Part shown: in pieces, positions 1 through 57,400 of the stretch
How positions within the stretch are numbered: position 1 is the first letter of the stretch
Layout: each line of letters starts with the position of its first letter
NCBI GenBank assembly: GCA_048013815.1
Contig: CM106585.1
Location: forward strand, 1,302,001 to 1,366,000
From: Setoptus koraiensis
Lineage: Eukaryota; Animalia; Arthropoda
DNA: 64,000 nucleotides
Reading direction: 5' to 3'
The notes under the pieces: generated by a model
Databases searched by the model: none
Seen by the model: the letters and a program-made list of their open reading frames with translations, nothing else
What the model was told of the DNA's origin: nothing
Translations under genes and position numbers: made by a program

Positions 1-2360
1 GATTGTTGTTATTGATGGTCAGCCAGTAGTGGCGGCCACAAGAGCCACCAATGGTATGGTTTATGTGGTGAACAAATTTGTCAACATTACAAACCAATCA
101 CCTACAGTGATTGAGCTAATTAATCAAAGCAGAAACCTTTCTACTTTTAGCTCATATTTGCGACTATCTGGTTTCGATTCAGAACTCAAAAAAGGTGAGC
201 TGTGCTTCTTTATGCCAAACCGGCGCATATTAGTTGGATTTTAATTTTAAATATTAGCCAATATCTAACGACATCGCCCTGCTTTGCTAACTTGATACAA
301 ATTTAGATTCTGGACCGATAACAATATTGGCGCCCACTAATGATGCCTTTGATCAGCTATCTGACAAAGGCAAAGCATTGCTCAACTCGGACCCAGCTGC
401 TCTCCTTGGTAAGCTACTCTTTAGATGCAGATGATGAGTCAATAAACTGAGTCCTTCAATAATGCTAATCAATTACAATAATCAAACGATCTTGTCAACG
501 AAATAAATTTCAGATATCATAAAAGGACATATCGTTGATGGAGCTCAATTTGGTAAACTGATATCAATGAGAGTCCGATTGCCAACTCTAAACGCGGGCC
601 AATTTGTCACAGCCAAGAACATCAAACGTAAGTTGTTTTTTATTTTTACCTCATTCTCCCTCCATAATTACACTGTTTGTTGTGATCGAAATTTATTAAT
701 ATGCAAACCAAATAACCAAATATCGCTCTGTCATCGCTCTCACTAGCAAACGTTTATCTACTGGATGAACAAATGACAACCATCAAGTTGGTAGGTTCAT
801 CTGGAAATGGTGTTGTGAATTCCATTGATCGTATCATAGTTCCACGATGGCTGAGAAATTCATTCGAGTCATTGTCAAATAGAAATAATAGTTCATTTGT
901 TGGAGATCGCGAAATTGAAAACATTGACTCCAGTAGGATAGGTAGATTTGAGTCGGGTATCAATCAATTCAATCAGCCCATAATAAGAGAGCCCAGTGCC
1001 ATAGATACCATTACTAGTAGCATTAATACATCGGATGGTTTCGAGTCGACATCTAACACTTTTGGAAACAATACCAATCAAGGTGTCAGAGATACACCGA
1101 ACACAACGACGAGTATGTTTAGTGGGGCTGCTACACTTTCTGATGGGCTAGACATATTTGTCATGACAAATAATAATAGATCGAGCAACAATAACAATCG
1201 AACTAGTACCATCAGACATCCTTTGGACGCAACAACAACAACAACTAGCTGGAACAATAATTCAATGTCTAAAAATATGAGATTAATTGAAGAATTGTCA
1301 TCTATGATGTCGGCAAACAAATTTGTAAAATTGTTGCATAAGGCTAATTCGGCAAAATTTCTAAAACAAGCAACAAACTATGTTATATTGGTGCCCACTG
1401 ATCAGGCTATCGATAAATTGCCAAAACAAATAATACAGATGCTGGAAAGGAATAATCAAAAATTAGAGGATCTAGTCAACTATCACATTCTTGAAACAAC
1501 ATTTGAATATATAAATATGATACCAGATGGTCAGACATTGAATACAATCAATGATAAAGATATTGTTTTCAATTGGTATAGGAACAACACAATACTTACT
1601 GCTTCCGGTTCTGTTGTGTTGAGCGGTGTACAAGAGGATAATATAGCTTTGCTTTTAGTAGATCGTGTACTATATCCAACTCCTGGCGATATAATGGACA
1701 TAATATCCAAATCGCCAATACTAAGCAACTTAACTAGAATAGTACGAAATACGGGCCTAGAACAACAATTATCCAAATCTGGCCCATTTACATTATTTGC
1801 ACCGTCAGATTATGCATTTAGCAAATTATCGGCCAACGACAGAGAGTTCCTTAATCGCGACACTGATGTAGCTAGAAGTAAGTTTTATCTCTTCGATTGA
1901 TATTGTTATAATTGTTTGAACATAACATTTGCTAAATAACTAAACTAACTGCTGCTCTCATTTCGCTATATTTCGTCGACTATTTCAAGGATTTTTGTTG
2001 AAGCATCTGAGCCAGCCGACAGTGTTTACATCTGCGATAGCTTTAAGCAATGTAACCACAATAATTCAGGGAGGCCAGTCAGTCCCGAGATTGAGTATAA
2101 CAAATTCGCTGGGCGATGAATTATTGTTACGCCAAATGAACGGTATGTCCTACTGACTTATATAAAACTCAATCATCAATTATATCGTACATGAATTCTG
2201 CTCATGGTCTCATTCAAATACTAAGACACTATAACTGTATTTTTCATCTCAATATTCTTCTGTCACCACAGACTATTTCTCTGTCAACGATGTCAACTTT
2301 TCATACTCTGATGTCGCGGCGACCAATGGAGTGATTCATGTGATTGATGGAACCTTATAG
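1..2360 (+). CDS. Fasciclin (FAS1) domain protein, TGFBI/periostin/midline-fasciclin-like; 5'-partial multi-exon copy
   Basis: GT-AG exons <1-194, 307-408, 514-627, 747-1877, 1990-2142, 2272-2360 splice in frame. They give FAS1 H1 motifs (TILAPTNDAF, VILVPTDQAI, FTLFAPSDYAF) and H2 motifs (ATNGMVYVVN, ATNGVIHVID), ending at TAG 2358-2360. Track ORF 773-1900 is an internal exon. Confidence 0.9.
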
Positions 2361-2639
2361 ATACTGTCATAATCGGCACACTCTATTATCCAGCAAGATA
2401 AATGTTGTAAATGTATAATTATTGTTATATGTTTGATTGTTATTCGATCAATTATGTAACTATTTTGTTTTATTCTTTGTAGTATAGTAGCCCATTCATC
2501 CAGCAACAAAATAATAAACCTCGTTTATGTACAGATATCAAGCAACCAAGAATTGATTTCATTATCAATAGATGTTAATTTATGCAGAAATTGCGAAAGA
2601 TAGTCTTGTTGAAACAGTTTTGGATCGAAAGCCATGAAG
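1..2639. repeat. Inverted near-identical duplicate of 26563-29201
   Basis: Position i matches the complement of 29202-i at both ends (no net indel), with only scattered substitutions in exons, introns and 3' UTR. Confidence 0.95.
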
Positions 2640-5806: not shown

Positions 5807-6596
5807 CTTTGATGCCAAGAAAGAAAAAAGAAGCAATATAAAAAAGAAAAAAAAAATAGCGGAAAAAAAAAAGAAAATATAAAAAGGAATGAAAAAGAGA
5901 TAGGACCAAAAAAAGCAAGGGAAAAAAAAGAAAAAAAAGAACAAAAAAAAAAAAATAAAAAATAATGAAAAAAAAAAATAAGTAGGAAAAGAAAAAAAAA
6001 ATAGAAAAAAAAAAAAAAAGGGAAAAAAAAAAAAAAAAAAGAAAAGAAAAAAAAAAAAAAGAAAAAAAAAAATAAAAAAAAAAAAATAAAGAAAAAAAAT
6101 AAAGAAAATAATGAAAAAATAAAGAAAAAAAAGATAAGAACAAAAAAAAAAATAAAAAGAAAAAAGAAAAAAGAAAAAAAGCAAAAAAAAAAAAAAAATA
6201 ATAAAAAAGAAGTAAACAAAAAGCGGAAAGATAAGAAAATAAAAGATATAAAAAAAAAAAAGAAAAAAAAAGAAAAAAGGAAAAAAAAAAGAAAAAATAA
6301 AAAAAAAAAAAAAAAAGAAAAAGAATAAAGAAAAATAAAAAAAGAAAAGTAAAGCGAAAAAAAAGACGAAAAAAAGAAAAAAAATAAAAAGAATAAAAAA
6401 AGGCACAACCAAAAAAAGCAAAAGAAGAAACAAAAAAATAAAAAAAAAAAAAAAAAAAAGAAAAAAGAAAAAAAAAAAAAAAGAAAAAAAAAAAAATAAT
6501 GAAAAAAATAAAGAAAAGAAGGAAAAGAAAAAAAAAAATGAAGTAGAATAAAAAAAAAAAAGAAGAAAAAAAAAGAAAAAGAACAAAGAAAAAAAC
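5807..6596. repeat. A-rich low-complexity tract (T-rich on the coding strand); possible GT-AG intron or assembly artefact
   Basis: About 790 bp of degenerate poly(A) interrupted by single g/t/c. On the minus strand it starts GT (6596-6595) and ends with a polypyrimidine run then CAAAG (AG at 5808-5807). Confidence 0.85.
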
Positions 6597-20900: not shown

Positions 20901-21332
20901 AGTTTGGCGATGACAATTAAACAACAAACTGGTTGAACTGTCCAACTATTTCCGCTTTTGCCAGAAGTCGTGCAATCTTAAAAACAAGATAAACCCAAGG
21001 TACCGAGACTAGGATTTTTTCAGAAATGCGTCTTCTATTATGACAAGGGATATTATCCAGTATCGTTGTCGTGTAGTCTGGCACAAATGGAGATTACCTG
21101 CCCTTGTACCAGTCCCACAGAATACGTACCTCTACCACATGTCGGGTTAGAATCGGAGTATGATCACTCAACATGTAACCTTGAAAATGCTAATTTGTCA
21201 GAACGGGCAAAAACGTTTGAATCCATTGCAAATTATCTGTGTACAAGGTTGGGATGGGGAGATTGGCCAAGACAGAGCTATGCACAAATGGTTGCCACTG
21301 GTTGCACCCTTGCGCGTATGGCATTTAGGTTG

Positions 21333-21790
21333 TTGTAGCGATTAGGTCCCAGCGCCGATCATGATGAAACTTCCGGTACAGGTTCATCTTGACCCAAAAC
21401 CATTGGAAAAAGTGGTCCGGAAGTGCGGAAACTTCCGGTTCCGGTTTTACCTAAAGTTGCTTCTAGAGCGTTGAAAATCACCAGACTGACGTTCAAGATG
21501 ACGATTAACAGGATGACATAACTTTCAGCACTTCACCACGTCCGGTTCTTTGGTTATAGCGATATCTCTAGAATTGAGAGACCAGAATTTGCCGAATTCA
21601 GGCTTCGCTACACTCAGGGATGAGCCTGCAATTGTTCTTAGAACTCTGCCTGCGGCCTCGTATTCTGGAGGCCGTCACATCTCCGTCGTCGCTACCGCGA
21701 CGACTGCGTGCGACGGGAACCCTTGGGGAAGGGTTGATGAGCGCTTCGGGTATCGGGCTGCGCCCTCTACCCTCCGCTCACATGACTGCA
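21333..21790 (+). mobile_element. Left arm plus hairpin core of non-autonomous TIR/foldback-like element (copy 1)
   Basis: tccggaagtgcggaaacttccggttccggttttac is identical to ~24488-24522; terminus resembles 24403-24445; followed by the conserved core. Right arm not found. Confidence 0.6.
21641..21790 (-). repeat. Conserved multi-hairpin core, copy 1
   Basis: Near-identical to 35218-35367 (5 differences) and to the reverse complement of 24677-24825. Strand given is the one carrying GNA/GNNA loops. Confidence 0.9.
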
Positions 21791-22006
21791 ATCCAAACAC
21801 AGCTGCAGGCGGGAAGAGTGAACGAACCAACTAACAGAGAATGAGAAAGAAGAGATTAAGTGACTGAAACAGACGTGAATACAGAGTGCAGCGAGCACGA
21901 GTAATAAATAATGTAATAGAGTGTAATAAATAAGCTTGGATCGGTAGAGTTTAATGTATATATATGATATTCATTTATTTAAGCATAAGACAGGAATGGC
22001 CTATGT

Positions 22007-22600: not shown

Positions 22601-22627
22601 TTTTGTTTCGGCAGAGTGGTTGTTTTA

Positions 22628-22690
22628 TTAGCGCTTAATTTTAATTAAGTAGCTATTGATGTGGTTCTGGGCTCTACGTTTATTCACGTG
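22628..22690 (+). repeat. 63-bp bipartite direct repeat 1
   Basis: 28 bp identical (ttagcgcttaattttaattaagtagcta) + 19 bp variable + 16 bp identical (tacgtttattcacgtg) relative to 24195-24257. Confidence 0.9.
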
Positions 22691-23121: not shown

Positions 23122-24144
23122 ATGTCGAAGCGACGCGCTTTTGAACTTGCGGCTCGCAAGTTTGCCTCGCGCACACCCACAGACCGAGGTGAGCTTAGCG
23201 ATGATGATGACGATGATGCTGCCAACGCGAGCCTTGTAGGCATGCCAGACATTGCGCGCCACATGACCAGTACACCAACAGCACGGACCAGATCGAGGAA
23301 TGTGATTTACTCGAGTGATGAGGAAGTTTTGGCCATTGAGGATACACCTAAGGGTGCTGATGAGGCTGAAGGCAGCGTTCCCATGGCTCTGGGAGATGAA
23401 GAGGAGTGTGCCGGTGGCCCAACGTCGTCCCACCGGGTCCGAAAGAACAAAGGGAGCACAAAAAAGGCTCAGAAGAAGGACTTGTCTATTCCAGGGAGCA
23501 GGTTCCTGGCAACTTGCAAGAACGACGACGAACTCAATAGGGCTTTTTCGTCCATGGCCATTTTGTCGAACCCAATAAACAATTGGGATGACAAATACGC
23601 ACTGGTGATGAGTGCCGTGGCTCAGGCATATTTCAAGAGTCCAGATTTGCGGCGACCGCCCTCGCTGATTGGCTTTGAGTCTGCCAGAAAGTTGCGTTTC
23701 ATGCCGCCACGAACATTTGATGACGTGCTGCCAGCAGTTTCTATGCGCAAGTATGACGCGCTCGTCTGGCTTCTTGCGGATGACGACCATCGCCAGCACC
23801 CTATTATCGTCGCTTGCTTTTATGGTGACCATGAAAAAAGCTACAGGCTCTCGAAGGATGCCCCACTCATCCGCGGCCTTGCAACTAGCAGCACAATTTT
23901 GCAGGGTGTTGCGATATTTACACTGAAGTACAGCGATCTGTACGTGAATATACCGATTCACTTGCGCCGCGGTGTGAGCCGCAAGATCCCAGGGTGTTCG
24001 ACTGACGAGGATCGCCGGATGGCACTGGGGAAGATACCAGCAGTTCAGGTTACCGTGAAGCACCGGGCATACAGCGCTTATTACACGGATAAGTATTTCG
24101 AGGTAGGTCGGCTGCTTGCTATTAGAGTAAAGAAATCAGAATAG
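23122..24144 (+). CDS. Hypothetical protein (ORFan, 340 aa), intronless
   Basis: First ATG 23122, TAG 24142-24144; GC-richer than its AT-rich flanks. Acidic/basic disordered N-half and globular-looking C-half; preceded by an AT-rich promoter-like stretch with repeated tgtaaat(a/t)tcct motifs. Confidence 0.7.
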   Translation: MSKRRAFELAARKFASRTPTDRGELSDDDDDDAANASLVGMPDIARHMTSTPTARTRSRNVIYSSDEEVLAIEDTPKGADEAEGSVPMALGDEEECAGGPTSSHRVRKNKGSTKKAQKKDLSIPGSRFLATCKNDDELNRAFSSMAILSNPINNWDDKYALVMSAVAQAYFKSPDLRRPPSLIGFESARKLRFMPPRTFDDVLPAVSMRKYDALVWLLADDDHRQHPIIVACFYGDHEKSYRLSKDAPLIRGLATSSTILQGVAIFTLKYSDLYVNIPIHLRRGVSRKIPGCSTDEDRRMALGKIPAVQVTVKHRAYSAYYTDKYFEVGRLLAIRVKKSE

Positions 24145-24194
24145 CTCTTGACTATGTGTCCTTTATTTCTAAACTAAGAAAAACTTCTACATTT

Positions 24195-24257
24195 TTAGCG
24201 CTTAATTTTAATTAAGTAGCTACTGGGGTAGTGATGTTGGATACGTTTATTCACGTG
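24195..24257 (+). repeat. 63-bp bipartite direct repeat 2
   Basis: Partner of 22628-22690, with identical spacing of the two conserved blocks. Confidence 0.9.
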
Positions 24258-24404
24258 ACCATGTAATCCTATGGAGGTTTGACTTAGTCTTATTTGTGAG
24301 AATCCTGCTAGACATCACACATGTATTCCTATGTAGATTCGACTTGGTCTATTATCGCTTCACTCGAAAATATTTCGTATGCAATCCTATGGAGATTTGG
24401 GGTG

Positions 24405-25170
24405 TAGTGCAGAATAGCGCCACACTCCGATTTCGATAAAACTTCACACATGGGACCCGTAGGGCCCCCTGACAACAGTTTGACTAGTCCGGAAGTGCGG
24501 AAACTTCCGGTTCCGGTTTTACATGAAATTCAAGATACAGGCTTAAAACTCGATATGCAGCTAGGTCAGAGTATGGAGAGCACACTGGCATCAATTACAG
24601 AATTATTCAACTTCCGGTTCTCAAGATATTCGAACAAATCTCCGTGTAGGACATGAACCCGCCGTAGTAAATGAATTGCAGTCACTTGAGCGGAGGGTAG
24701 AGGGCGTAGCCCGATACCCGAAGCGCTCATCAACCCTACCCGAAGGGTTCCCGTCGCACGCAGTCGTCGCGAGAGCGACGACGGAGATGTGACGGCCTCC
24801 AGACTACGAGGCCGCAGGCCGAGTCTTCAGATCAGTCTCAGCCATGTTTCTGAATACGGCGAAGCCATAAAATCTCTCAAAATGTTGGTCTCGCCCCTAT
24901 GGATATGTTCGCTTTTATCAACTTCCAAAGTTCACATGTCCAATCACCAGAGGCCGCTCTACCCAAGAATACCCAAGATACCTCAAAAAAATGCCCCAGA
25001 GACCGCTAGCGGACGTCGGGTATCGAGAAACGCCTCCCATGCGGTACCTCCGTTATTCAGGAACTGGGAATTTCCGCACTTCCGGAATACCCACATCGGT
25101 ATCAGGGTACAATACACTACCCGAAAATATGCAAAAATACCCAAAAAAACTGTGGCGCTATTCTGCACTA
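24405..25170. mobile_element. Non-autonomous TIR element with central hairpin core (copy 2)
   Basis: Perfect 20-bp inverted repeat tagtgcagaatagcgccaca (24405-24424) / tgtggcgctattctgcacta (25151-25170), whose outer TA may be a TSD; internal inverted ccggaagtgcggaaa arms; core at 24677-24825. Confidence 0.8.
24677..24825 (+). repeat. Conserved multi-hairpin core, copy 2
   Basis: 6 differences from the reverse complement of copy 3, all at loop or unpaired positions. Confidence 0.9.
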
Positions 25171-25179
25171 TAACCGAGA

Positions 25180-26062
25180 TTTGACTAGGTCGAATTTGTG
25201 CTGAGTTCGGTGGTGACAAATCGAACTTCAAAATTGAAAATCCGAATTTCTAATAAGAGTTTTAGCTGCTCGTCCAAAGTTAGTGGTTCAGTTTCCTTAG
25301 TTCCATGGTCGGAGTTCGGTGGTGACATTTCGAACTTCAAAATTGACAATTCGAATTTCTCATGATAGTTTCATCTGCTCGTTCGATGTTCGATGGTTGG
25401 AGTTCGAAGTTCGATGGCCAGAGTTCGGTGGTCAGAGTTCGGTGGTCACAACTCGAACTTCGAAATTCGAAATTGAAAATTCGAATTTCTGATGATAGTT
25501 TCATCTGCTCGGTCGGAGTTCGATGGTCAGAGTCGTTCGGTGGTCACAATTCGAAATTCGAAATTGAAAATTCGAATTTCTGATGATAGTTTCATCTGCT
25601 CGTTCGATGTTCGATGGTCAGAGTTCGATGGTCACATTTCGAACTTCGAAATTCGAAATTGAAAATTCGAATTTCTGATGATAGTTTCATCTGCTCGTTC
25701 GATGTTCGATGGTCAGAGTTCGATGGTCAATGTTCGATGGTCACATTTCGAACTCCGAAATTTGAAATTGAAAATTCGAATTTCGGACGATAGTTTCATC
25801 TGCTCTGTCGGAGTTCAGTGGTCAGAGTTCCGTGGTCAGAGCTCGATGGTCACAATTCGAAGTTCGAAATTCGAAATTGAAAATTCGAATTCCTGATGAG
25901 AGTTTCAGCTGCTCGTTCGATGTTAGATGGTCAGAGTTCCGTGGTCAGAGTTCTGCGGTGACAATTCGAACTTCGATATTGAAAATTCGAATTTCTGATG
26001 AGAGTTTCAGCTGCTTGTTCTATGTCCGATGGTCAGTGTTCGATGGTCACAATTCTAACTCC
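25180..26062 (+). repeat. TTCGAA-rich tandem array, ~8 units of ~90-130 bp, running into gap
   Basis: Recurring anchor tttca(t/g)ctgctc near 25261, 25370, 25500, 25590, 25685, 25795, 25903 and 26005, with ttcgatggtca and ttcgaaattgaaaattcgaatttc subunits. Confidence 0.9.
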
Positions 26063-26562: not shown

Positions 26563-26841
26563 CTTCATGGCTTTCGATCCAAAACTGTTTCAACAAGACT
26601 ATCTTTCGCAATTTCTGCATAAATTAACATCTATTGATAATGAAATCAATTCTTGGTTGCTTGATATCTGTACATAAACGAGGTTTATTATTTTGTTGCT
26701 GGATGAATGGGCTACTATACTACAAAGAATAAAACAAAATAGTTACATAATTGATCGAATAACAATCAAACATATAACAATAATTATACATTTACAACAT
26801 TTATCTTGCTGGATAATAGAGTGTGCCGATTATGACAGTAT

Positions 26842-29800
26842 CTATAAGGTTCCATCAATCACATGAATCACTCCATTGGTCGCCGCGACATCAGAGTATG
26901 AAAAGTTGACATCGTTGACAGAGAAATAGTCTGTGGTGACAGAAGAATATTGAGATGAAAAATACAGTTATAGTGTCTTAGTATTTGAATGAGACCATGA
27001 GCAGAATTCATGTACGATATAATTGATGATTGAGTTTTATATAAGTCAGTAGGACATACCGTTCATTTGGCGTAACAATAATTCATCGCCCAGCGAATTT
27101 GTTATACTCAATCTCGGGACTGACTGGCCTCCCTGAATTATTGTGGTTACATTGCTTAAAGCTATCGCAGATGTAAACACTGTCGGCTGGCTCAGATGCT
27201 TCAACAAAAATCCTTGAAATAGTCGACGAAATATAGCGAAATGAGAGCAGCAGTTAGTTTAGTTATTTAGCAAATGTTATGTTCAAACAATTATAACAAT
27301 ATCAATCGAAGAGATAAAACTTACTTCTAGCTACATCAGTGTCGCGATTAAGGAACTCTCTGTCGTTGGCCGATAATTTGCTAAATGCATAATCTGACGG
27401 TGCAAATAATGTAAATGGGCCAGATTTGGATAATTGTTGTTCTAGGCCTGTATTTCGTACTATTCTAGTTAAGTTGCTTAGTATTGGCGATTTGGATATT
27501 ATGTCCATTATATCGCCAGGAGTTGGATATAGTACACGATCTACTAAAAGCAAAGCTATATTATCCTCTTGTACACCGCTCAACACAACAGAACCGGAAG
27601 CAGTAAGTATTGTGTTGTTCCTATACCAATTGAAAACAATATCTTTATCATTGATTGTATTCAATGTCTGACCATCTGGTATCATATTTATATATTCAAA
27701 TGTTGTTTCAAGAATGTGATAGTTGACTAGATCCTCTAATTTTTGATTATTCCTTTCCAGCATTTGTATTATTTGTTTTGGCAATTTATCGATAGCCTGA
27801 TCAGTGGGCACCAATATAACATAGTTTGTTGCTTGTTTTAGAAATTTTGCCGAATTAGCCTTATGCAACAATTTTACAAATTTGTTTGCCGACATCATAG
27901 ATGACAATTCTTCAATTAATCTCATATTTTTAGACATTGAATTATTATTCCAGCTAAATGTTGTTGTTGTTGCGTCCAAAGGATGTCTGATGGTACTAGT
28001 TCGATTGTTATTGTTGCTCGATCTATTATTATTTGTCATGACAAATATGTCTGGCCCATCAGAAAGTGTAGCAGCCCCACTAAACATACTCGTCGTTGTG
28101 GTCGGTGTATCTCTGACACCTTGATTGGTATAGTTTCCAAAAGTGTTAGATGTCGACTCGAAACCATCCGATGTATTAATGCTACTAGTAATGGTATCTA
28201 TGGCACTGGGCTCTCTTATTATGGGCTGATTGAATTGATTGATACCCGACTCAAATCTACCTATCCTACTGGAGTCAATGTTTTCAATTTCGCGATCTCC
28301 AACAAATGAACTATTATTTCTATTTGACAATGACTCGAATGAATTTCTCAGCCATCGTGGAACTATGATACGATCAATGGAATTCACAACACCATTTCCA
28401 GATGAACCTACCAACTTGATGGTTGTCATTTGTTCATCCAGTAGATAAACGTTTGCTAGTGAGAGCGATGACAGAGCGATATTTGGTTATTTGGTTTGCA
28501 TATTAATAAATTTCGATCACAACAAACAGTGTAATTATGGAGGGAGAATGAGGTAAAAATAAAAAACAACTTACGTTTGATGTTCTTGGCTGTGACAAAT
28601 TGGCCCGCGTTTAGAGTTGGCAATCGGACTCTCATTGATATCAGTTTACCAAATTGAGCTCCATCAACGATATGTCCTTTTATGATATCTGAAATTTATT
28701 TCGTTGACAAGATCGTTTGATTATTGTAATTGATTAGCATTATTGAAGGATTCAGTTTATTGACTCATCATCTGCATCTAAAGGGTAGCTTACCAAGGAG
28801 AGCAGCTGGGTCCGAGTTGAGCAATGCTTTGCCTTTGTCAGATAGCTGATCAAAGGCATCATTAGTGGGCGCCAATATTGTTATCGGTCCAGAATCTAAA
28901 TTTGTATCAAGTTAGCAAAGCAGGGCGATGTCGTTAGATATTGGATAATATTTAAAATTAAAATACAACTAATATGCGCCGGTTTGGCATAAAGAAGCAC
29001 AACTCACCTTTTTTGAGTTCTGAATCGAAACCAGATAGTCGCAAATATGAGCTAAAAGTAGAAAGGTTTCTGCTCTGATTAATTAGCTCAATCACTGTAG
29101 GTGATTGGTTCGTAATGTTGACAAATTTGTTCACCACATAAACCATACCATTGGTGGCTCTTGTGGCCGCCACTACTGGCTGACCATCAATAACAACAAT
29201 CTTTTTGTCTGGTATACTAGACAATATTAGTTTTCTTTTTGACATACTAGGTATAATTGTGTCCTTCAATAAATCTTTGGGCGTCATTAGACTGAAGGAC
29301 AGATGATCTAAAAGTAATTGTCTTGCTTGTTGCGAGGAACAATCAATATTATATGGCTGATTAAAAGAATAGACACTCTGTTGGCTTCTATCATCATTGT
29401 TAGTGCTGGTGAGATCAACGCCCGAAATGATGCCACAAACAGTTTCCATGGATTAATCAAGTGTAGAGACGCGGACTTCATTGTGCATGAGATAGATCTG
29501 GAGGGAAATTCAGCACATTTAACTAATACAAAGATCCCTGACGACGAAAAACTTGAGGTGCAAGACAGTCCAAAACTTGACAGCATTTTAAATCAAGAAC
29601 AAATCGATTCTATTGATGCGGTCATGAAAGCTATTCCTTACCTGAAATTAATTGAAAGACGACCAATATGAATAAAGAAGCCAGTACAGAATTGCATCAG
29701 CGATCAGTAGCTAATTTGAAGAATAGATAGCACAACCGTTGTCCGATCACCTAATCGGATAGAACGATGAATACGAACAATATATTTTGATTAAACGCTA

Positions 29801-33249: not shown

Positions 33250-33794
33250 TCAATAGTAAATCAGATCTTGTTTAGTCCCAATTCATCTTAATCGAGATAA
33301 AATGTTCCGCGTTGGACTTGTGAAATTACTGACAGTGCTCAGTGTATTGTCAGTTAATTCAAAATTAGTACCCGTGCATGGATCTATATTCGATATACCA
33401 GAATGGAATAAGAATGCGGTGAGAATCTGAACATCTAACAAATCTCTCTTCAAATCATTAAACATTGCTTCACGAGCTTGTGAGAGAATGTCTTCTTAGA
33501 TCTATCGAAATATCTCCACATCACCTTGATCGCTTCATACATGATAAAATTCCTACTCCTCTGAAAGATAGTGTATGTGAATATTTTCATAAATTAAAAG
33601 ACAAGATCGGCATAGTATGCGCCGTTGATACTCGCACCCTTTGGCAGCACTTCAATTAGGAGAATTCCTTCCTTGTCCCAAAAAACTGAAATAATTATGG
33701 TCCTCTTATCACTCACCCGTTTCCCTCTCGTCGGAGCGTCATAACCTCTCTGTCTCCGTTCAGCTCTACTCGTCCTACTGTCGAGAGTGCTCAC
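33250..33794 (-). mobile_element. Tc1/mariner transposase relic (C-terminal half, frameshifted)
   Basis: IIISVFWDKEGILLIEVLPKGASINGAYYADL is typical of mariner transposases; a downstream FSPHSYS fragment matches the LPHPPYSPD motif. Confidence 0.75.
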
Positions 33795-34792
33795 AGAAGT
33801 TTCATCACAGGAAATTAAATTAGTCTAAATGATAGAGATGGCGATGAATCGGCTTCAAACGGATAACCGTCGGTTTATCCGTTAGAGAATCGTTCACAGC
33901 TGGTTTTGGACTTGTGTTTGAAATTCATCAGGTTCAACGGTTTATCCGTGTAGAATCCGTTCGAAACCGACTATCCGTTCACGAACAGTTCTTGAACAGA
34001 TTCTAAGCAGACAAACAGTCGAATCTGGTGCGAGTGAAACATACTCACTCACTGCATGCATAGCAACAAACTTTGCAAACATCGCGGGCTTCCGTGTGTG
34101 AGCGCATTTAATACATCGCATGCAACTTACAATATTGTTGGCGATAGTTGAAAACGGTTGGATAAGGTCAATAAATATTAGCGGCAATCACTTAATTCAG
34201 TGGTTTTAGTTAATTCGGTGTGTTTCAACTGACTCAATTGCTCAGTTGAGCAACACGAAACATCCAAAACAATTGACAAACAAGCGATTTTCAGCGCCTT
34301 TTATTGTCTGGCGTCTCAATGTCTGGCGCGTTTGAGCGGCTTGATCTGTCTGCATTAATCTGTCAGAATCTATTTCTTTTTGAATTTTCAATCAATATAA
34401 TAATATCGGTCTTGAGTAAACACATATTGTTTCATTATTTTCGATCGAATTGAGGAGAATTCTATTTTTGTTCGAAATGAGTAGACCATTATCTAGACAA
34501 GATAGTAATGATATCGAGAGGAAGAAAGAGTATATTCGGAGTTGATTACAGAAGAAAGATGGAGCTAAATTGGTATCGATGGAAGAAGTGAGTAAGAAAT
34601 CTTATAGCGAAGTTTTGAACAGCTTTTCACTTTTATCATACACTCATATCGGTGTATTCAAGTGAGTATTGAATCAATAGTTGCAGTGATGCTAGATGTT
34701 CAAATGTGAATGAATGAATGTGAAGAGATATCTAGATTGAGCGCGTGAAATATCAGAAGTACAAAAGATAGATGAAAGTATTTTCGGTTATA

Positions 34793-45179: not shown

Positions 45180-47070
45180 CAGGAAAGGCCTGCTTCTTGA
45201 CTCAAGCTTCACAGCCATTATATCCAGCCATAACTAGGTTGCATCATAATTGTGCTTGTAATTTTCAAATAGAGATGGTGCCACAATCTGTTACTGGGGT
45301 GCAGAAAATAGGATTGTGTATTGTTTCAATAACAAGAAGAAGAAGCCATGCTGATTGACACAGCACGCAAAAACCTCATAATAGCAAAAATACGTTGGTG
45401 CCCATTCTTGATCTAGATGAGAACAGTTCAGAGAGAACAGAGAACAGTTTGGGCAGAGTTAGACAGGGGAGAAAGAGAGAGGGAGAGAGAGAGAGAGAGA
45501 GAGAGCTGACCTGGCTAAGCTCTCCTATGCAACTAACTTGTCAGCACTCTCGCAGTAGGCTCTCTTTTGTACTTGTATCTGCTTCTTGCATAACGCTCCG
45601 GTTGGCTGTTTGTCTCGCCGTAAGCCTCGGTTGAATGAAACGAACACAAATTGCAGCTTCAGTTCCTACGATTGCGCTTGTTGGGTACTAGCAGTTACGT
45701 AACGTTAATGTTAGTGTTAAATGCCAAAATGGTGCGTGAAGCCAGACAACACCACTACAAATATAAGTAGTTGTACGTGTTTCATTAGCAACTCAAACAT
45801 CTCAGGCCCATTGTTTGTTTTTCGGCAACAATCTCGCGGATGTTCGTCTTTTAACACAAGCACGATATGAAAACAAGGGCTCACACACTCTTTTTGCATA
45901 AATTCTCACCGAGTTGGCACCCAATCCATAATTAATTATATATTTGGAGTGTGCTGAGAGCCAGTCTTTCGACAGTTGCTCCTGGAATGGGAATCATCTA
46001 TTCAGAGTCCACTGTCTAGCACAGATTTGAGTTCTTCAAATTGGCCATTGGGGATAGAGAGAAAGAGAGCCATAGAGTTTGCAAGAGAGGTTGGGTGGGT
46101 CAGAAATAACGGCGCCAGTCACATAACGTGCATAGTGCCGACTGTAGTGCCTATGACAGCAGCGTAGTGGCGGTAAGCAAGTGGGTAGCATAGCGCAGTC
46201 TACGTAATCAGCAAATTATAACCGGGACATAAATGGCATAAATGGGAAGCAGCAGATGAATATATCTGTTCCGTCTCATGAGCACAAAACCTAAAATATT
46301 TACAAAACTACTCAACACACAGATACACTCAATATCACCTGCACTCATTTTGATTGGTTTGTAATTTTTATTACATTCTTGTCCCTTTTAATGAGCTACA
46401 TCGATACCTAATGTTGATATCTGATATTGCCAGACAAGCAAACAATGGACAGTGAGTAGGAGCTTTGAACGAGCAGCCGGTTGTCGATAAAACACAATCG
46501 GAGGCCTCATTGCGACCACCATCAACAATTAGCGAATCACTGGCAGTTGATGGCAGTTCGCAGCCACCGGATATAATGGAGCATCGCGACAAAACAAATA
46601 GTTATGCAATACAACAACAAAGTTTTTTGTTGTTGATGCAGCCCGGGTGCGCACAACACCAATACCACTAATAGGGAGCCTATGCGATCACGATTTGTTT
46701 ACCTTACCTTAACTCGATTTGATCTTGATTATGTATTGATTGAGCCTTTTATATGGAACATGTTCTCTCAATCCTTTCTGTCTCACTATTTCTTTACGTG
46801 TGACGCAAACAAGGATTAGTGTTATTGATAATTGATTGATTAATAATCAGCACTATTGTTGTTGATGTATTATGGGTTGTTGAGTGGTGGCTTGATATAT
46901 AAGAATTACAATAAACATTTGTTGTTGTGTTGGTGGTGCATGGTGCGCTGGTAATTGCATATGTACGAAAGTCATCATCAACAGTGTAGTATTTGTTTTT
47001 TATCCTCTACATAGGGGCCACAAGATGTGAAGGGACTCAGAGTGTATGCGCAAAGAAAGTGAGCCAAGAC

Positions 47071-47443
47071 CTATGGGCCCCATTGTAGGTAGGCAGCGGG
47101 CCCCCACTGGTACCCGAACTTGTACGGTTACTGGCTCGGTAGCATTGAACATGGCTAACCACAGTGCAACACTACCACTGCCAACTGTCTCGCACACAGC
47201 TGATGGGGTGATCTTTGGGGAGCGAGCGAGCAAAATAACAGCAGCCGCAGCCGTAGCAGCAGCAACAACAGCAACAACGAGCTGCAAATCGAGTTAGCCA
47301 CTCGACAATACACACAAGTTATGTCACACATAAACAGGCACATCGACGCAAACACACATTGCAAAGAAAAAGATAGAGCGAGAGGAAAAGGAAAGGCTTT
47401 TAGGCGCGCTTTATCCAGCACTTCAGCTGCAGCTTCATAGAGC
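47071..47443 (+). repeat. Non-coding block duplicated in inverted orientation at 52700-53163
   Basis: Shared cacacagctgatgg(gg)tgatctttggggagcga, gctgcaaatcgagtt.gccactcgacaa, agttatgtcacacataaac, ggcgcgctttatcca.cacttcagct. Confidence 0.85.
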
Positions 47444-48704
47444 GAGCTCGTGAGATGGGCGATTTTTTGTAAGCTATACCAGCAGGCTCGAGGCTCGAGC
47501 ACGCTGAACGGCGCGCGGCTGAAGGCGCAATGAGGCTTCGCTTCAGATCAAGTGATCGCTGGCAGTGGCAGCAGAGCTAGCATGTATTCTCTGTCTGGCT
47601 GTGGCTCGCTGCTGCTGAGCTGGAGCTGAGTATAGGCAATGGTTCTCGTGTTTGCTGTCTCGTGGTGCTCTCTTGCTCGCTCTCTCTCTCTCGCTCTCGC
47701 GCTCTCTCGCATTGTATTCGTCGCTATCAGCATCAATTTATCAAGCGATACGCACGTATATGCCACACATACGCACCATTGGCTCACACACACTAATGGC
47801 AACAATAATAATTAACAAATAAAATTCGACAGCAACCAGCTCAATTATCCGGATAGAAAATCATCATGAAAATAAAATATTGACCATGATTTTTGTGCAG
47901 CAAGAGAAGCTCACGATACACAAGCCAATGTTTGGGGCCGACCACTATTGCAGTCATTGGATAACGTTATATCAGGAGGACACAGTTTGAGATTTATATT
48001 AATAAATTAATATTAATTCCAATCGTTGTCACAGGAAGGGATTCGTTGCAAATTGACATCGTCCACACGTCGTCATTATCTCACATTATTATTATTATTA
48101 TCATTATTAGCATCATTATTAGTATCATTCGCTTTAATATTATTTATTGGTTGGTTACTATGTGGCTAGCAAATTGCAGCTTTGATTCTCTCTAGGTGAG
48201 TAGTTCAATATGACAATATCATAGCTCAAATTTTACACAATTACATAATTGTCGATCTAGTTAAGGACTTCAATCTAGTCGATATTAGATTAGTTGATTT
48301 AGATGCTGCTGGCAATCATGTTAATTGTGCTGTATATTGGCGACCAAGTTCACGTGTTTATAATTTATATAAATCAACGACCGAGAGTGATAATTGTGAG
48401 AGATGCAATTTTGAATCTGCTCATCTCATACACATTTTAAACTAACACAACAAATGTTATCTTATCCCGATTATCCCATGTTATATTCCGTTGTTATCCC
48501 GATTATTATGGGGCCCCATGTTTAATTTCAATTTAAAGCATCAGCAGACAGGGAACACAGGACATGGTAATCAATTTCCACTGTAAAACTCATTATACCG
48601 ATATTACTGAATATTAGTTATCAATATTAGTTATCCAATATTTAAATTGGACTAGTCATTGTTTATTATTATCGATTGACATTTATCATTAATTGAACAA
48701 CAAC

Positions 48705-52699: not shown

Positions 52700-53163
52700 G
52701 CTCTATGGAGCTGAAGTGTTGGATAAAGCGCGCCCAAAAGCTTTTGCTTTCGCTTTCTCTCTCAGATGTGTATTTGAGTCGGTGTGTCCGTTTATGTGTG
52801 TGACATAACTGGTGTGTGTTGTCGAGTGGCGAACTCGATTTGCAGCTTGTTGTTGCTGTTGTTATTTTCGTCGGTCGCTCCCCAAAGATCACCATCAGCT
52901 GTGTGTGAAATTCGCAGTGTTGCGCTGTGGTTAACAGTGCTTACTACTACTGCTAGTCCCGTGCCAGTGAGTATACAAGTTTGGGTAACGACCAGCAGTG
53001 TGTGTGTGTGTGTGTGTGTGCGTGTGTTTGTGTGTGGAACGGGACAGAGAAGTAGAGCGAGAGAGATAAAGGATGTTCGAGTTTGATCGGCTGCGCGTTC
53101 ACTCATGCGCACAGAACATAAAGTTGGCGCGCACAGTAGTGGGGCACTCTCATAGGGCCCATA
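52700..53163 (-). repeat. Inverted partner of 47071-47443
   Basis: Reverse complement aligns across several blocks, with indels in microsatellite parts. Confidence 0.85.
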
Positions 53164-54001
53164 ATTCTTAGCTGAGCCAAATGACAAGGCTCATTGGGAC
53201 TAGCTCAGCTGGCGGACTTTCTTTGCGCACAACTCGAACATTTTCACATTCTGTGCTCCACAATACATGGGCCTGCCAATGATTCATGATGGTCGCCAAG
53301 CCATACAAGCACGCATTGCGTAAGCAGTGAGGACGAACGATAGTTGCTCTCGCGATCACTCTTATATAATACTGTGCCATGCTGTGCTGTGCGTGTGCGT
53401 GTGTGTGTGCAAGCGAAGAACACCCAATGGAAGCTTGGGGAGTTTTTGTGAGCTGTACCAGCATCAGCACACACACACACACACTCACAATAATGCCGCG
53501 AGGGGAAGGCACAAGGAGGCGAGCGTATGCAGTGCTTAGGCTATTTTTGCATGGCTTACAGCACGCATTCGCCATATACATATACGACGCATAGTGGGGG
53601 TAGTGAAGAGATAGACACATTGAGAGAATCAAGTTCATTGATTCGCTCCAAATCGAATGGTCGTCGTCGTGGTCGGCAGTGGAAGTTCTATTGGCGTATA
53701 TAGTACAGACGCATAGTACGCACACACACACACACGCAGTTGTGATAGTTTATGTCTCTGGTAGAGAATTGTAGAGTATAGTGTATACCACTCTGTTGTT
53801 GGCTGTTCGTCGCTCGCATTTTATTCGTCGCTATCAGCATCAATTTATTAAGCAACACACACGCACACATACATACGCACGCACAAGCAGACAGACGGAC
53901 TAGGCAGTGAGTAATCGCCAGCGAGCGTCTCGATTATAATGATGTAAATCATTGCTTCATCATCTATATCACACAATACACACACACTGGTGTTAGCAGC
54001 G

Positions 54002-54044
<43 letters not shown>

Positions 54045-54414
54045 CGAACATTTATTTATTTTTTCCATCGAACATTTCAACCATTCTATTTAGAAGAGAA
54101 TAAAATTGACGAAGAATATTCCAAAGAGACACAATTATCCAAAAAGAAGATACAAGATAGACAAGAAATAGCCAACATCCAGCTACAATAACAATATTTC
54201 GTTGATGATTTTTGCACACAGTCGCAATCGGAACAAAACAACACAACAACAAGAGTTACTATTAACCACAGCATGATGAAATCAAGACACAATTAGACAA
54301 TTAATAATATCACCAACAATAATAATACTAATTGGCGAGATATTCATTCGGGCAGTGTCATTGTTATTTGTGTCACACATAGAGAAAGAGTGAGACAGAA
54401 AGGATTCAGAGAAG

Positions 54415-57400
54415 ATGTTCCATATCAGGGGATACCTACATGATCAATCGTTATTATCAGTATCATCCACTTTAATACTATCAGTGCTCGCTATATTGTG
54501 GGTCACAAATTCTGTCGTTTATGGTAAGTATGGCACATGCAACCGTGATGCGGCAACAATAGTAATATCATCAACCACAATATAATACTAGCATGGTGGT
54601 GATCCCAGTGATCCGAGTAATCCGCTTCTTCGAATCGTTCGGCAACCAATCGAAGAATCGGTCACTGCACTGCTCACCACTAATCCCCCCACCCTGCCCT
54701 CTTTCTCTCTCGCTCTACTAATACCATCGTTCAACCACAATTTTTCTCTCAACACCGCTACCATCGCCTCATCCGCCTTACCGCCACTCGTACATACACT
54801 CACCAATCGAACCCATTAACTTCGCGCGCGAAACCACCAAATATCAATAATGTAAATATGATGCCAATAGGAATTAAACTACAGCCAGAGGGAAGAGAAA
54901 AATTCTATTGGAGTGGAGAACAATTTGTTATAACTTGTCAAAACAACAACAATATTAAAAATGGTAAGTACTACCTGCATGATATTAATGCGCGCACTCA
55001 ATTCATTTAGCTTCAGTCGTCGCCAACAAATGAAAATACCTTCTCAATCCATCTGAATGCACTAAATTACTTGCCAGTCAAGTTTGCCGGCACAGTTATA
55101 ATTTAATGCTAGACAGAATATTAGCTCAATGCTAGTATATAGCGACTTGTTTTTGGCTCAACTGGATTAAATGTGTAACTTCGAGGAAGCTTTCGCAAAT
55201 ACGTCTTTAATTTTTGATGGAAAGCTTCCACAAACAATTGGTTTGATTATGTATCAATTTTTTGAAATATTTTAAATATCAAAACAGTTATCACACAAAC
55301 AGCAACCAAGCACTTCTATTGTTTCATTCTATTCAAGAGCCATCAACAGCCATGCAGCTGTTAGCAAGTCAATCAAATCTCACATATGTTTAAATCTTCA
55401 GACACAGAATGAAGAGTGTTTAAATTGTTCCTCTCGTAGTCGTTTCCTCTATTGAGCATTCTTCAAAAGGCAACAAATTTTTCAATGATTATCAAATAGG
55501 TTAACTCTAAGCACCAAGTCACCAGAGAGTTTCCTTGTTAGTTTGTAGTGCGTGTGTGTGTGTGTGTGCTATAATTGTATCCGGTAATTTATTGCATCAC
55601 TACGAGTGAAAGAAGCGTTGACGCTCTACTCAACAAACTTGTAGACCGGATTCTTCTAGCTTCCAGTTCGTATGAGTTTTTGTTTATTTACATAACAAGT
55701 CACCTTTTCACGTCGTCGAATTCGTCAATAACAAAAACCAAAGAGATTTTTTGACCATCCTAGACACACAAGCGCACATTCCAACATCATGCAGACGATA
55801 CATAGACCAGATTGAATATCCAAAACCACAGGATTGTGCGTACGTATGAGTTTGGATCTTGTGTAGTATGTAAATAAATACATGCATACAACACAGCACA
55901 ACGAAACAAAAGCATGCAAAATGTCTTAGGTTCGTTTTATTTCATATCCTCGAACGAATATGACCGGTAGAAAAAATAGAGAAAGATGAGCCTGCGTCAC
56001 GAACGTTCTTGACACTATGCTACATGATAGCTTCTCTAGAACCGCAAGCATGACCTCTCTAATCAATGACGTCACTGCCACAAGAATGTGTCTAAACAGA
56101 TTCTGATAGATTAAACAATTGATCGATTTACTTCAAGTAATAATTATTATGATAATAATGATGATCTAGTCAATGAGGCTGAATGAATAAAAATCCAATC
56201 AAGGTGAGGTTAGATAAACAAATCGTGATCATCCGTCTTATTATACTAATTTTAGCAAGATAAGCATAAGTCGGCTAACATTCAATCAAGCCGCTTGATG
56301 AATTCCTCGCTCTCTCTCTCTCCCTCTCCCTCCACCTGAAACGCTCAAAGTTTGTGTGTGTTCGTTTCAAGTTTTCAAGTTGCAATAAGCTTCGTGCTAC
56401 CACTCGCTAATAGTTTAGTGTGTGTGAGAGTGTGCGTAAAAATTCAATCACTAAACCAAAGTTCAACAGATGCTATATAAGATGAACGGACTTCAATGAT
56501 CAACTACAGCAACAACAACAAATAGCAAATTGTTGTCGAGCAGGACACACGATTCGTTTAGCACATGCTTCAAGCGATAACATTTGTGTGTGTTCTCTCT
56601 TCCTTCTTGAATCTCTTATTTCAAAGCCAGGGAACATTTCGACCAGGCCTGAAGATACTTGATGCTCTCTTCCGTCCCGAAAGAACCTGACTTGATGAAA
56701 CAATTGATAGTATTGACATGGCGATAGTTCAGTGATCTAAACAGAAGTGGTTTCTTGCATTTGTTTATTCTGGCTAGATATTACACAACTCTGCCAATAC
56801 ACCTTTGCACATGTGAGCTTTGTGAAGTGAATGATAAGAGAAAGAATCAAGCTTAAATGATCTGTCTAAATACCACTAAATACAGCAACTCACACATGTT
56901 TGATATATTATCATCATATATATAAGTAGCCAAATGAATTCTTTTTGTTGTTTGTTTGCTCTTCTTCTCGATTGATTGAGATTATCTACTTTGAGGTCAC
57001 TCAGAGAATAACAACCATTTGATGTTAATATCATAGCTGTGCTAATGCCTCTATCATTGACTCTCGTGCTTTTTGCACTATCGGTATGCCCGTCTGAGTT
57101 AAATTACATTTCTACTCCTACTCACCATGGTCATGATATTTTATTACATTATTAGTTTAATCGTTGATGATGAACAGGCGCTGCTATGCGAATTTGCCAC
57201 AAAGGGATTGTATAAAGATGGCGTACAACAATTAATTCATTGATTATAACTAAAAGCTAATAAACGCCAGCCTATAGTGAGAGAAAGAACAAAAGCACAC
57301 AGTCTTGAATAGGGTAACCTCACACTATTTTCTAGACATGCATGCGTCTTCATCACGATAGAATATGTGTTTGTAAACAGATTTTCTATGTGGGACGAAC

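What the first reader, a model, noticed from the sequence alone, without database searches (positions are those of the whole stretch)
21641..21790. 150-bp multi-hairpin core in three copies, with variation confined to loops and a single-stranded-DNA folding signature
Seen: copies at 21641-21790, 24677-24825 (opposite strand) and 35218-35367 differ by only 5-6 nt while their flanks are far more diverged. On the copy-2 plus strand the core forms tgagcg-ga-gggta-GA-gggc-[GTA/GCA]-gccc-GA-taccc-gaag-cgctca, aaccct...agggtt, gtcgtcgc-[GAGA/GGAA/GGTA]-gcgacgac and cggcctc-[8 nt]-gaggccg. Changes fall in loops or single-stranded ends, and the loops keep GNA and GNNA consensus; the long stem has tandem GA/GA mismatches. 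Established: c(GNA)g triloops, GNNA loops and sheared tandem G.A pairs are exceptionally stable in DNA, and hairpins are the recognition signals of ssDNA-based (HUH/rolling-circle) elements. Inference: a selected, strand-specific ssDNA (or RNA) structure acting as origin or recognition site of an uncharacterised mobile family.
Basis: partly seen in the sequence, partly recalled or inferred. Interest (0 to 1): 0.8.

Follow-up and report, generated by a model that had tools for sequence, protein, structure and literature searches.

The report
Hairpin core shared by mite mini-transposons
The repeat is a near-invariant 150-base middle piece shared by small, otherwise very different non-coding jumping-DNA elements in what is likely a plant-feeding mite; one strand is predicted to fold into unusually stable DNA hairpins that likely help these elements get copied.

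Summary
The three copies and their one-strand fold are real. Copies 2 and 3 sit inside non-coding elements of 776 and 980 bp with terminal inverted repeats starting GG and exact 8-bp target-site duplications; paralogous empty sites fit those ends. The arms are 62-70% identical, the cores 93-97%. In two sequencing runs the core is about 78 times deeper than element 3's arms and joins several different flanks. So it is a high-copy module shared by many subfamilies. Window-copy changes avoid stems (5 of 5). In a many-copy run only 4 of 9 variable sites are unpaired (not enriched), though 7 of 9 are compatible with the fold, and the GNA and GNNA loop ends never vary. No Rfam, tRNA or HUH/Rep match was found. 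The host is likely an eriophyoid-type mite. Best reading: a MITE-like DDE-transposon family (Merlin, MULE or Zisupton; undecided) whose core works in cis as folded single-stranded DNA during copying. That function is inferred, not shown. A rolling-circle origin is not supported.

The parts
24672..24825 (+). Core copy 2 (folding strand is +)
21641..21795 (-). Core copy 1 (folding strand is -)
35218..35372 (-). Core copy 3 (folding strand is -)
24687..24729 (+). Hairpin 1 of copy 2: 6 bp, GA/GAAG loop, 5 bp, tandem GA/GA, 4 bp, c(GNA)g triloop
   Evidence: predicted; loop variants
24732..24749 (+). Hairpin 2 of copy 2: 6-bp stem, or an inner 4-bp c(GAA)g mini-hairpin
   Evidence: predicted
24751..24795 (+). 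Hairpin 3 of copy 2: 8-bp outer stem (one G.T), internal loop, 8-bp stem, c(GNNA)g tetraloop
   Evidence: predicted
24796..24820 (+). 3' region of copy 2 with competing small hairpins (8-nt loop stem, or a c(GCA)g mini-hairpin)
   Evidence: predicted
24400..25175 (+). Element 2: 776-bp non-coding element, ends GGGTGT / TATAACC, 24 of 30 terminal bases inverted-complementary, arms 67% self-similar over about 117 bp
24392..24399 (+). Left 8-bp target-site duplication of element 2 (identical copy at 25176-25183)
   Evidence: paralogous empty site at about 24261-24297
34786..35765 (-). Element 3: 980-bp non-coding element with the same asymmetric ends, 27 of 30 terminal bases inverted-complementary
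   Evidence: contigs that skip it in runs X1 and X3
34778..34785 (+). Left 8-bp target-site duplication of element 3 (identical copy at 35766-35773)
21328..21549 (+). Arm 61-67% similar to element 2's left arm, but joined to the 3' side of core 1; no partner end or target duplication found in the window
21552..21640 (-). 3' extension of core 1, ending in a right-end-like TATAACC motif; homologous to 24826-24921 of element 2

Best explanation
The core is a near-invariant middle module of small non-coding elements with inverted ends and 8-bp target duplications, likely moved by a borrowed DDE transposase, and it likely acts in cis as a folded single DNA strand while an element is being copied, which would favour re-copying and arm exchange between copies. 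Shown: boundaries, target duplications, empty sites, one core with many arms, high relative abundance, and a one-strand c(GNA)g / c(GNNA)g / tandem-GA design. Inferred: (1) a DDE transposase in trans cuts and pastes the elements (Merlin, MULE or Zisupton type; no partner found); (2) the core is exposed as single-stranded DNA during replication or repair of the excision gap; (3) its mini-hairpins pause or re-prime synthesis there, so core-bearing copies are restored more often and switch templates at the core. Step 3 would both keep the core uniform and reshuffle the arms.
For: Only two GG..CC-bounded stretches with exact 8-bp duplications and inverted ends exist in the window, and each holds a core. 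Contigs of runs X1 and X3 join across element 3, and element 2 has a paralogous empty site. Arms are 62% and 70% identical, cores 93-97%. Core depth is about 78 times the median arm depth in both runs, and 1,342 contigs of X3 lie on 176 bp. At least six different sequences follow the core's edge; by eye they share a faint skeleton (AC at offsets 4-5 in 7 of 8), which suggests old diverged flanks rather than random insertion sites. Copy 1 has a left-type arm on the opposite side of its core, as arm exchange would give. The triloop middle base varies (C, T, A) and the loop-closing G and A do not; one A-T to T-A pair swap appears at matching frequencies on both sides (3.5% in X3, 75% in X15). Only GNA among 64 triloops forms the DNA mini-hairpin, such hairpins bind SSB poorly, and they occur at G4 and ssiA priming sites (PMC13037366, passages).
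Against: No transposase for the family was found, and no genome could be searched. In X3 unpaired sites are not enriched among variable sites (4 of 9, 36% expected, P=0.43), and two variants (2.3% and 3.4%) break pairs. The phase of the pair swap is inferred from frequencies, not read from one molecule. RNA parameters fold the same strand as well or better, and the commonest tetraloop (GGGA, 98% in X3) is also a GNRA loop. Most unpaired positions are conserved too, which points to sequence recognition or homogenisation as well as shape. No experiment ties the core to copying.
Confidence: 0.45

Rival explanations
1. The core is kept uniform by gene conversion or by double-stranded recognition (for example a transposase-binding enhancer), and the fold is incidental or secondary.
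For: Unpaired positions are almost as conserved as stems, and variable sites in X3 are not loop-enriched. The motif TACCC(G/A)A(A/G) occurs in the cores and repeatedly in the right arms of elements 2 and 3. Conserved SINE domains have been proposed to persist as recombination hotspots (PMC5804259, abstract).
Against: Mini-hairpins are confined to one strand and far exceed shuffles. The loop-closing G and A stay fixed while the middle bases vary, and one pair swap is seen. Conversion alone would not give these patterns.
Confidence: 0.22
2. The core is a structured RNA module, transcribed from the elements, that aids mobilisation or blunts silencing.
For: RNA folding z of -5.1 to -5.6; the common tetraloops GGGA, GGAA and GAGA are GNRA; tandem GA pairs are also common in RNA (recalled).
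Against: GNA triloops and the GGTA and GGCA variants fit DNA better. Only 1 of 37 modelled pairs is G.T. No Rfam family at the gathering threshold or convincingly by E-value, and no tRNA.
Confidence: 0.18
3. The core is the origin or end of a separate HUH/rolling-circle element nested in the terminal-repeat elements.
For: Single-stranded-DNA design, sharp edges, and the reversed arrangement of core and arm in copy 1.
Against: All three window copies lie in family-type arms. The flanks share a faint skeleton rather than looking random (by eye). No HUH, Rep or Helitron domain was found in the frames scanned.
Confidence: 0.12

Closest known systems
Non-autonomous Merlin (IS1016/IS1595-related) elements
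   Same: Terminal repeats of 24-462 bp starting 5'-GG, 8- or 9-bp target duplication; imperfect repeats occur (PMC8101967, passages).
   Different: No Merlin transposase seen here; the passages read mention internal tandem repeats but no conserved folded core.
Non-autonomous MULE / foldback elements such as Aedes Muta1 derivatives
   Same: 8-9-bp duplications, long arms with short subterminal repeats, hundreds of derivatives (PMC5225508, passages); G/C-rich termini (PMC13359780, passages).
   Different: Muta1 derivatives conserve the arms and vary inside. Here it is the reverse: the middle is conserved and the arms diverge. The strong inverted repeat is only about 25-32 bp.
Zisupton (KDZ) transposons
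   Same: Terminal repeats and 8-bp duplications (PMC12730594, passages). A frame with a predicted Ulp1/SENP-like fold lies 1.3 kb from copy 1; Zisupton's Ulp1 domain is recalled, not read.
   Different: No KDZ transposase in the window, and that frame is not shown to lie inside a family member.
Highly conserved domains of SINEs (CORE, V, Nin)
   Same: One conserved body module shared by divergent non-autonomous families, proposed to act as a recombination hotspot (PMC5804259, abstract).
   Different: Those are retroposons with RNA-derived heads. Here the carrier has terminal inverted repeats and the module has a DNA mini-hairpin design.
DNA mini-hairpins at phage G4 and ssiA priming sites and N4 promoters
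   Different: Those are prokaryotic signals with known readers. No reader is known here, and there was no sequence match in phages or plasmids.

Membership tests
MITE-like non-autonomous TIR element | Terminal inverted repeats | tested here: met
   24 of 30 and 27 of 30 terminal bases for elements 2 and 3; not found for copy 1
MITE-like non-autonomous TIR element | Target-site duplication and empty site | tested here: met
   Exact 8-bp duplications in 2 of 2 complete elements; paralogous empty sites
MITE-like non-autonomous TIR element | No coding capacity | tested here: met
   No Pfam hit in frames of 62 aa or more within the elements
MITE-like non-autonomous TIR element | High copy number | tested here: met
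   1,342 contigs on the core in X3; depth 78 times the arms. Rough: summed contig depth is no copy number
Merlin | 5'-GG termini with 8-9-bp duplication | tested here: met
Merlin | Autonomous partner with DDE_Tnp_IS1595 transposase sharing the ends | not testable with these tools
   No genome held; none in the window
MULE | 8-10-bp duplication | tested here: met
MULE | Terminal repeats over 100 bp | tested here: inconclusive
   Strong repeat about 25-32 bp; element 2 arms 67% alike over 117 bp
MULE | MULE transposase sharing the ends | not testable with these tools
   No genome held
Zisupton | 8-bp duplication with inverted repeats | tested here: met
Zisupton | KDZ transposase (with Ulp1 domain, recalled) inside the same ends | tested here: inconclusive
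   A nearby frame has homologs with a predicted Ulp1-like fold but is not shown to be enclosed; no KDZ hit
hATx-6-type hAT | TAG termini | tested here: not met
   hATx-6 ends begin TAG (PMC8721813 supplement 3); these begin GG
HUH / Helitron / rolling-circle element | No target duplication (recalled) | tested here: not met
   The enclosing elements have 8-bp duplications; the core alone could not be tested as a separate unit
HUH / Helitron / rolling-circle element | Linked HUH/Rep gene | tested here: inconclusive
   None in the window's scanned frames; rest of the genome not available
Known structured RNA, tRNA-derived SINE | Match to an Rfam family or tRNA | tested here: not met
Catalogued repeat (Repbase, Dfam) | Sequence match to a consensus | not testable with these tools
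   No such library among the tools

The most novel reading that the evidence does not exclude
An animal transposon family that is cut and pasted by a DDE transposase but multiplies through a single-stranded DNA step. Its internal mini-hairpin core would be a priming or copy-out signal, like phage and plasmid single-strand initiation sites, shared by many subfamilies with different ends. It would give a concrete, testable answer to how MITEs reach thousands of copies.
Probability: 0.2. Interest if true: 0.82.

Novelty: new variant of a known kind. Interest (0 to 1): 0.5.

Why it matters
How non-autonomous cut-and-paste elements reach very high copy numbers is an open question (recalled), and their insides are usually treated as filler. 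Here the inside is far better conserved than the ends and has a one-strand DNA mini-hairpin design, which gives a small, defined sequence to delete, flip or unfold in a transposition assay. It also shows a high-copy family in a lineage whose best-studied genome has only 1.54% transposable elements (PMC7738191, passages).

Tried and rejected
No whole genome is held, so copies could not be collected and aligned; variation comes from contig tables only. Rfam: 0 hits at gathering thresholds on the window; 2 chance-level hits (E 6.8, 8.4) around copy 3. ARAGORN: 0. Pattern scans: viral contigs 0, 1, 1 and 0 loci in four scans, both hits unrelated on reading; JGI metagenomes 0, then 68 loci with an 18-mer, none matching beyond about 32 bp; prokaryote genomes 0; phages and plasmids no blastn match at E 1. 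Runs X8, X9, X13 and X16 held only 1-2 low-depth contigs each, so they say nothing on other species or expression; the single RNA contig (depth 3.1, running on into unrelated flank) shows neither presence nor absence of a core RNA. Hammerhead, hairpin, twister and HDV-like ribozyme motifs were checked by eye against recalled consensus patterns and not seen. My first guess of hATx was dropped. The frame at 23122-24141: no hit in the word-index search, weak Atlas leads only, no further homologs from the alignment, no solved-sequence hit, Foldseek nothing at E 0.001 in PDB and nothing credible among viral models; the single-sequence fold failed (pLDDT 32). The bacterial promoter and terminator scan was at chance level. 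Literature: two exact-phrase searches for a conserved internal stem-loop in non-autonomous TIR elements and for GNA triloops in transposons returned 0 papers; they are narrow and cover open-access papers only, so absence from print is not shown.

Full report
Observation. They differ at 4, 6 and 8 of the first 143 positions. The strand that is + in copy 2 and - in copies 1 and 3 folds better than its complement with both DNA and RNA parameters (z -4.4 to -4.6 and -5.1 to -5.6, against -2.9 to -3.8 and -3.0 to -3.4). That strand carries 2, 4 and 4 c(GNA)g or c(GNNA)g hairpins with 4-bp stems and the other strand none; 10 of the window's 13 such hairpins lie in the cores, and shuffles reach the counts in 4, 0 and 0 of 2000. 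All 8 positions that vary among the copies are unpaired in my model, 5 of 5 in the folded part (P=0.0034). The model was drawn from these same sequences, so this test is lenient.

Setting. A search of the window for GG..CC-bounded stretches with an exact 8-bp flanking duplication and inverted ends gave two hits: 24400-25175 and 34786-35765, each holding a core. Both have the same asymmetric ends, GGGTGT on one side and TATAACC on the other, followed by family-specific inverted repeats (24 and 27 of 30 bases). Element 2 interrupts a local repeat whose uninterrupted paralog lies about 120 bp upstream. Contigs of runs X1 and X3 join across element 3 with diverged letters between, as paralogous empty sites would. 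The arms of the two elements are 62% and 70% identical, the cores 93-97%. The 60 bases next to the core are at or near random identity, except the 3' flanks of copies 1 and 2 (59%; random 44 +/- 5.5%). Copy 1 has an arm like element 2's left arm but on the other side of the core, and no matching end or duplication in the window. Element 3 is nested in a decayed hAT element.

Host. The named proteins closest to the window's intronless guanylate cyclase beta gene are from Aceria tosichella and Fragariocoptes setiger, so the host is likely an eriophyoid-type mite. That gene lies on another contig of the scaffold, beyond N gaps, so the assignment of the cores rests on the scaffold.

Abundance and variation. 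No genome is held, so I laid public runs on element 3 and on its core. Of 24 runs listed, 20 hold some words; I laid 7. In X1 and X3 the core is about 78 times deeper than the median of the arms at 80% likeness, and 1,342 contigs of X3 lie on 176 bp. Summed depth is no copy number; hundreds to a few thousand copies is my rough inference, consistent with 3 copies in 62.5 kb. Loose ends show at least six different sequences after the core's edge; by eye they keep a faint shared skeleton, which suggests diverged homologous flanks rather than random insertion sites. X3 shows 10 changes at 9 sites at 1% or more (the core's ends are under-called because contigs stop there). Mapped on the fold: four sites are unpaired (triloop middle C to T or A, tetraloop third base, two internal-loop bases); two form an A-T to T-A swap at matching frequencies (3.5% in X3, 75% in X15; phase inferred); one gives a G.T wobble; two break pairs (2.3%, 3.4%). 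Unpaired sites are not enriched (4 of 9, 36% expected, P=0.43). Two further stem changes appear in single X15 contigs at depth 4.4 and may be errors.

DNA or RNA. A review I read in passages reports that only GNA among 64 triloops forms the stable DNA mini-hairpin, that such hairpins bind SSB poorly, and that they occur at G4 and ssiA priming sites and N4 promoters (PMC13037366). The triloop variants and the GGTA and GGCA tetraloops fit that rule and not RNA's GNRA rule, and only 1 of 37 modelled pairs is G.T. Against this, RNA parameters fold the strand at least as well and the commonest tetraloop is GNRA. Rfam and ARAGORN found nothing. I put DNA ahead of RNA, modestly.

Mobiliser. Frames of the window were scanned against Pfam: 12, 3, and 229 of the 230 frames of 62 aa or more lying outside the large genes (one low-complexity frame left out; 59 frames overlapping the large genes were not scanned separately). 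The only transposon hits were a hAT and a mariner fragment; no HUH, Rep, Helitron, tyrosine-recombinase, Merlin, MULE or KDZ domain. GG ends with 8-bp duplications fit Merlin (PMC8101967, passages). Long imperfect arms with short subterminal repeats fit MULE (PMC5225508 and PMC13359780, passages). Zisupton also makes 8-bp duplications (PMC12730594, passages). hATx-6 ends begin TAG and do not fit (PMC8721813, methods section and two supplements). A 340-aa frame between copies 1 and 2 has 7 unnamed homologs; a low-confidence model of the best one (pLDDT 42) matches SUMO/ubiquitin-protease folds in the shared part (top Z 8.2, rmsd 4.0, 157 residues). Such domains ride on some transposons (recalled), but nothing ties this frame to the family. 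The superfamily stays open.

Mechanism. The ends call for a DDE transposase in trans (inferred). A middle that stays near-invariant while the ends diverge must be either selected or continually homogenised. Its one-strand mini-hairpin design points to a moment when the element is single-stranded DNA: replication, or repair of the gap left by excision. I infer that the fold pauses or re-primes synthesis there, so core-bearing copies are restored more often and switch templates at the core, which would keep the core uniform and reshuffle the arms (copy 1 looks like such a product). Confidence 0.45. Rivals: homogenisation or double-stranded binding with an incidental fold (0.22), an RNA module (0.18), a nested HUH element (0.12).

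Comparison and novelty. It works like a non-autonomous TIR element and passes the structural tests for one; membership of a named superfamily could not be tested. One conserved module in divergent families is known for SINEs (PMC5804259, abstract and outline). Earlier AI notes of this scan describe a similar conserved-middle pattern in bacterial MITEs; these are unchecked leads, not support. Two narrow literature searches found no description for animal TIR elements; Repbase and Dfam could not be searched, so the family may already be catalogued. Other papers seen: PMC10045372, PMC11879100, PMC7738191, PMC11071193 and PMC9297572 (passages). Verdict: new variant of a known kind, interest 0.5.

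Noticed in passing
window 23122-24141 (+), between 66-nt direct repeats at 22625-22690 and 24192-24257: 340-aa frame without Pfam match; 7 unnamed homologs; the shared domain is predicted to have a Ulp1/SENP-like protease fold. Most homologs are longer, so this copy may be truncated. Possibly transposon cargo.
   Followed up: partly
window 33833-38329: Decayed hAT element with TAG ends, a 7-of-8 target duplication and a broken transposase on + (PF05699). It contains element 3 and interrupts or abuts a mariner fragment at 33597-33824 (PF01359).
   Followed up: partly
window 35845-35990: Stretch of short repeats built on TTCGGC and ending in a CCCC-type terminus; by eye like one arm of a Muta1-type MULE.
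   Followed up: no
window 25184-26060: Tandem array of about 109-bp units next to element 2, running into an N gap; a related unit seems to hold element 2's insertion site.
   Followed up: no
window 1-2639 and 26563-29201: 99.4% identical inverted duplication of a fasciclin gene region that starts exactly at an N gap; may be an uncollapsed haplotype.
   Followed up: no
window 38774-44677 (+): Uninterrupted frame of 1967 aa with C-terminal ankyrin repeats and about 1,600 residues without Pfam match, cut by a gap; origin not examined.
   Followed up: no
window 5820-6595: About 770 bp of nearly pure A between an SF1 helicase fragment and an LRR-containing frame on the minus strand; possibly a sequencing or assembly artefact.
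   Followed up: no
window 46686-47776 and 52706-56230: Several diverged inverted and direct repeats of 45-330 bp flanking the guanylate cyclase gene.
   Followed up: no
runs X1 and X3, joint 35373 to 34783: Contigs join the core's edge to an element-3-type end a few bases away (table 5c), suggesting family members inserted next to other cores.
   Followed up: no
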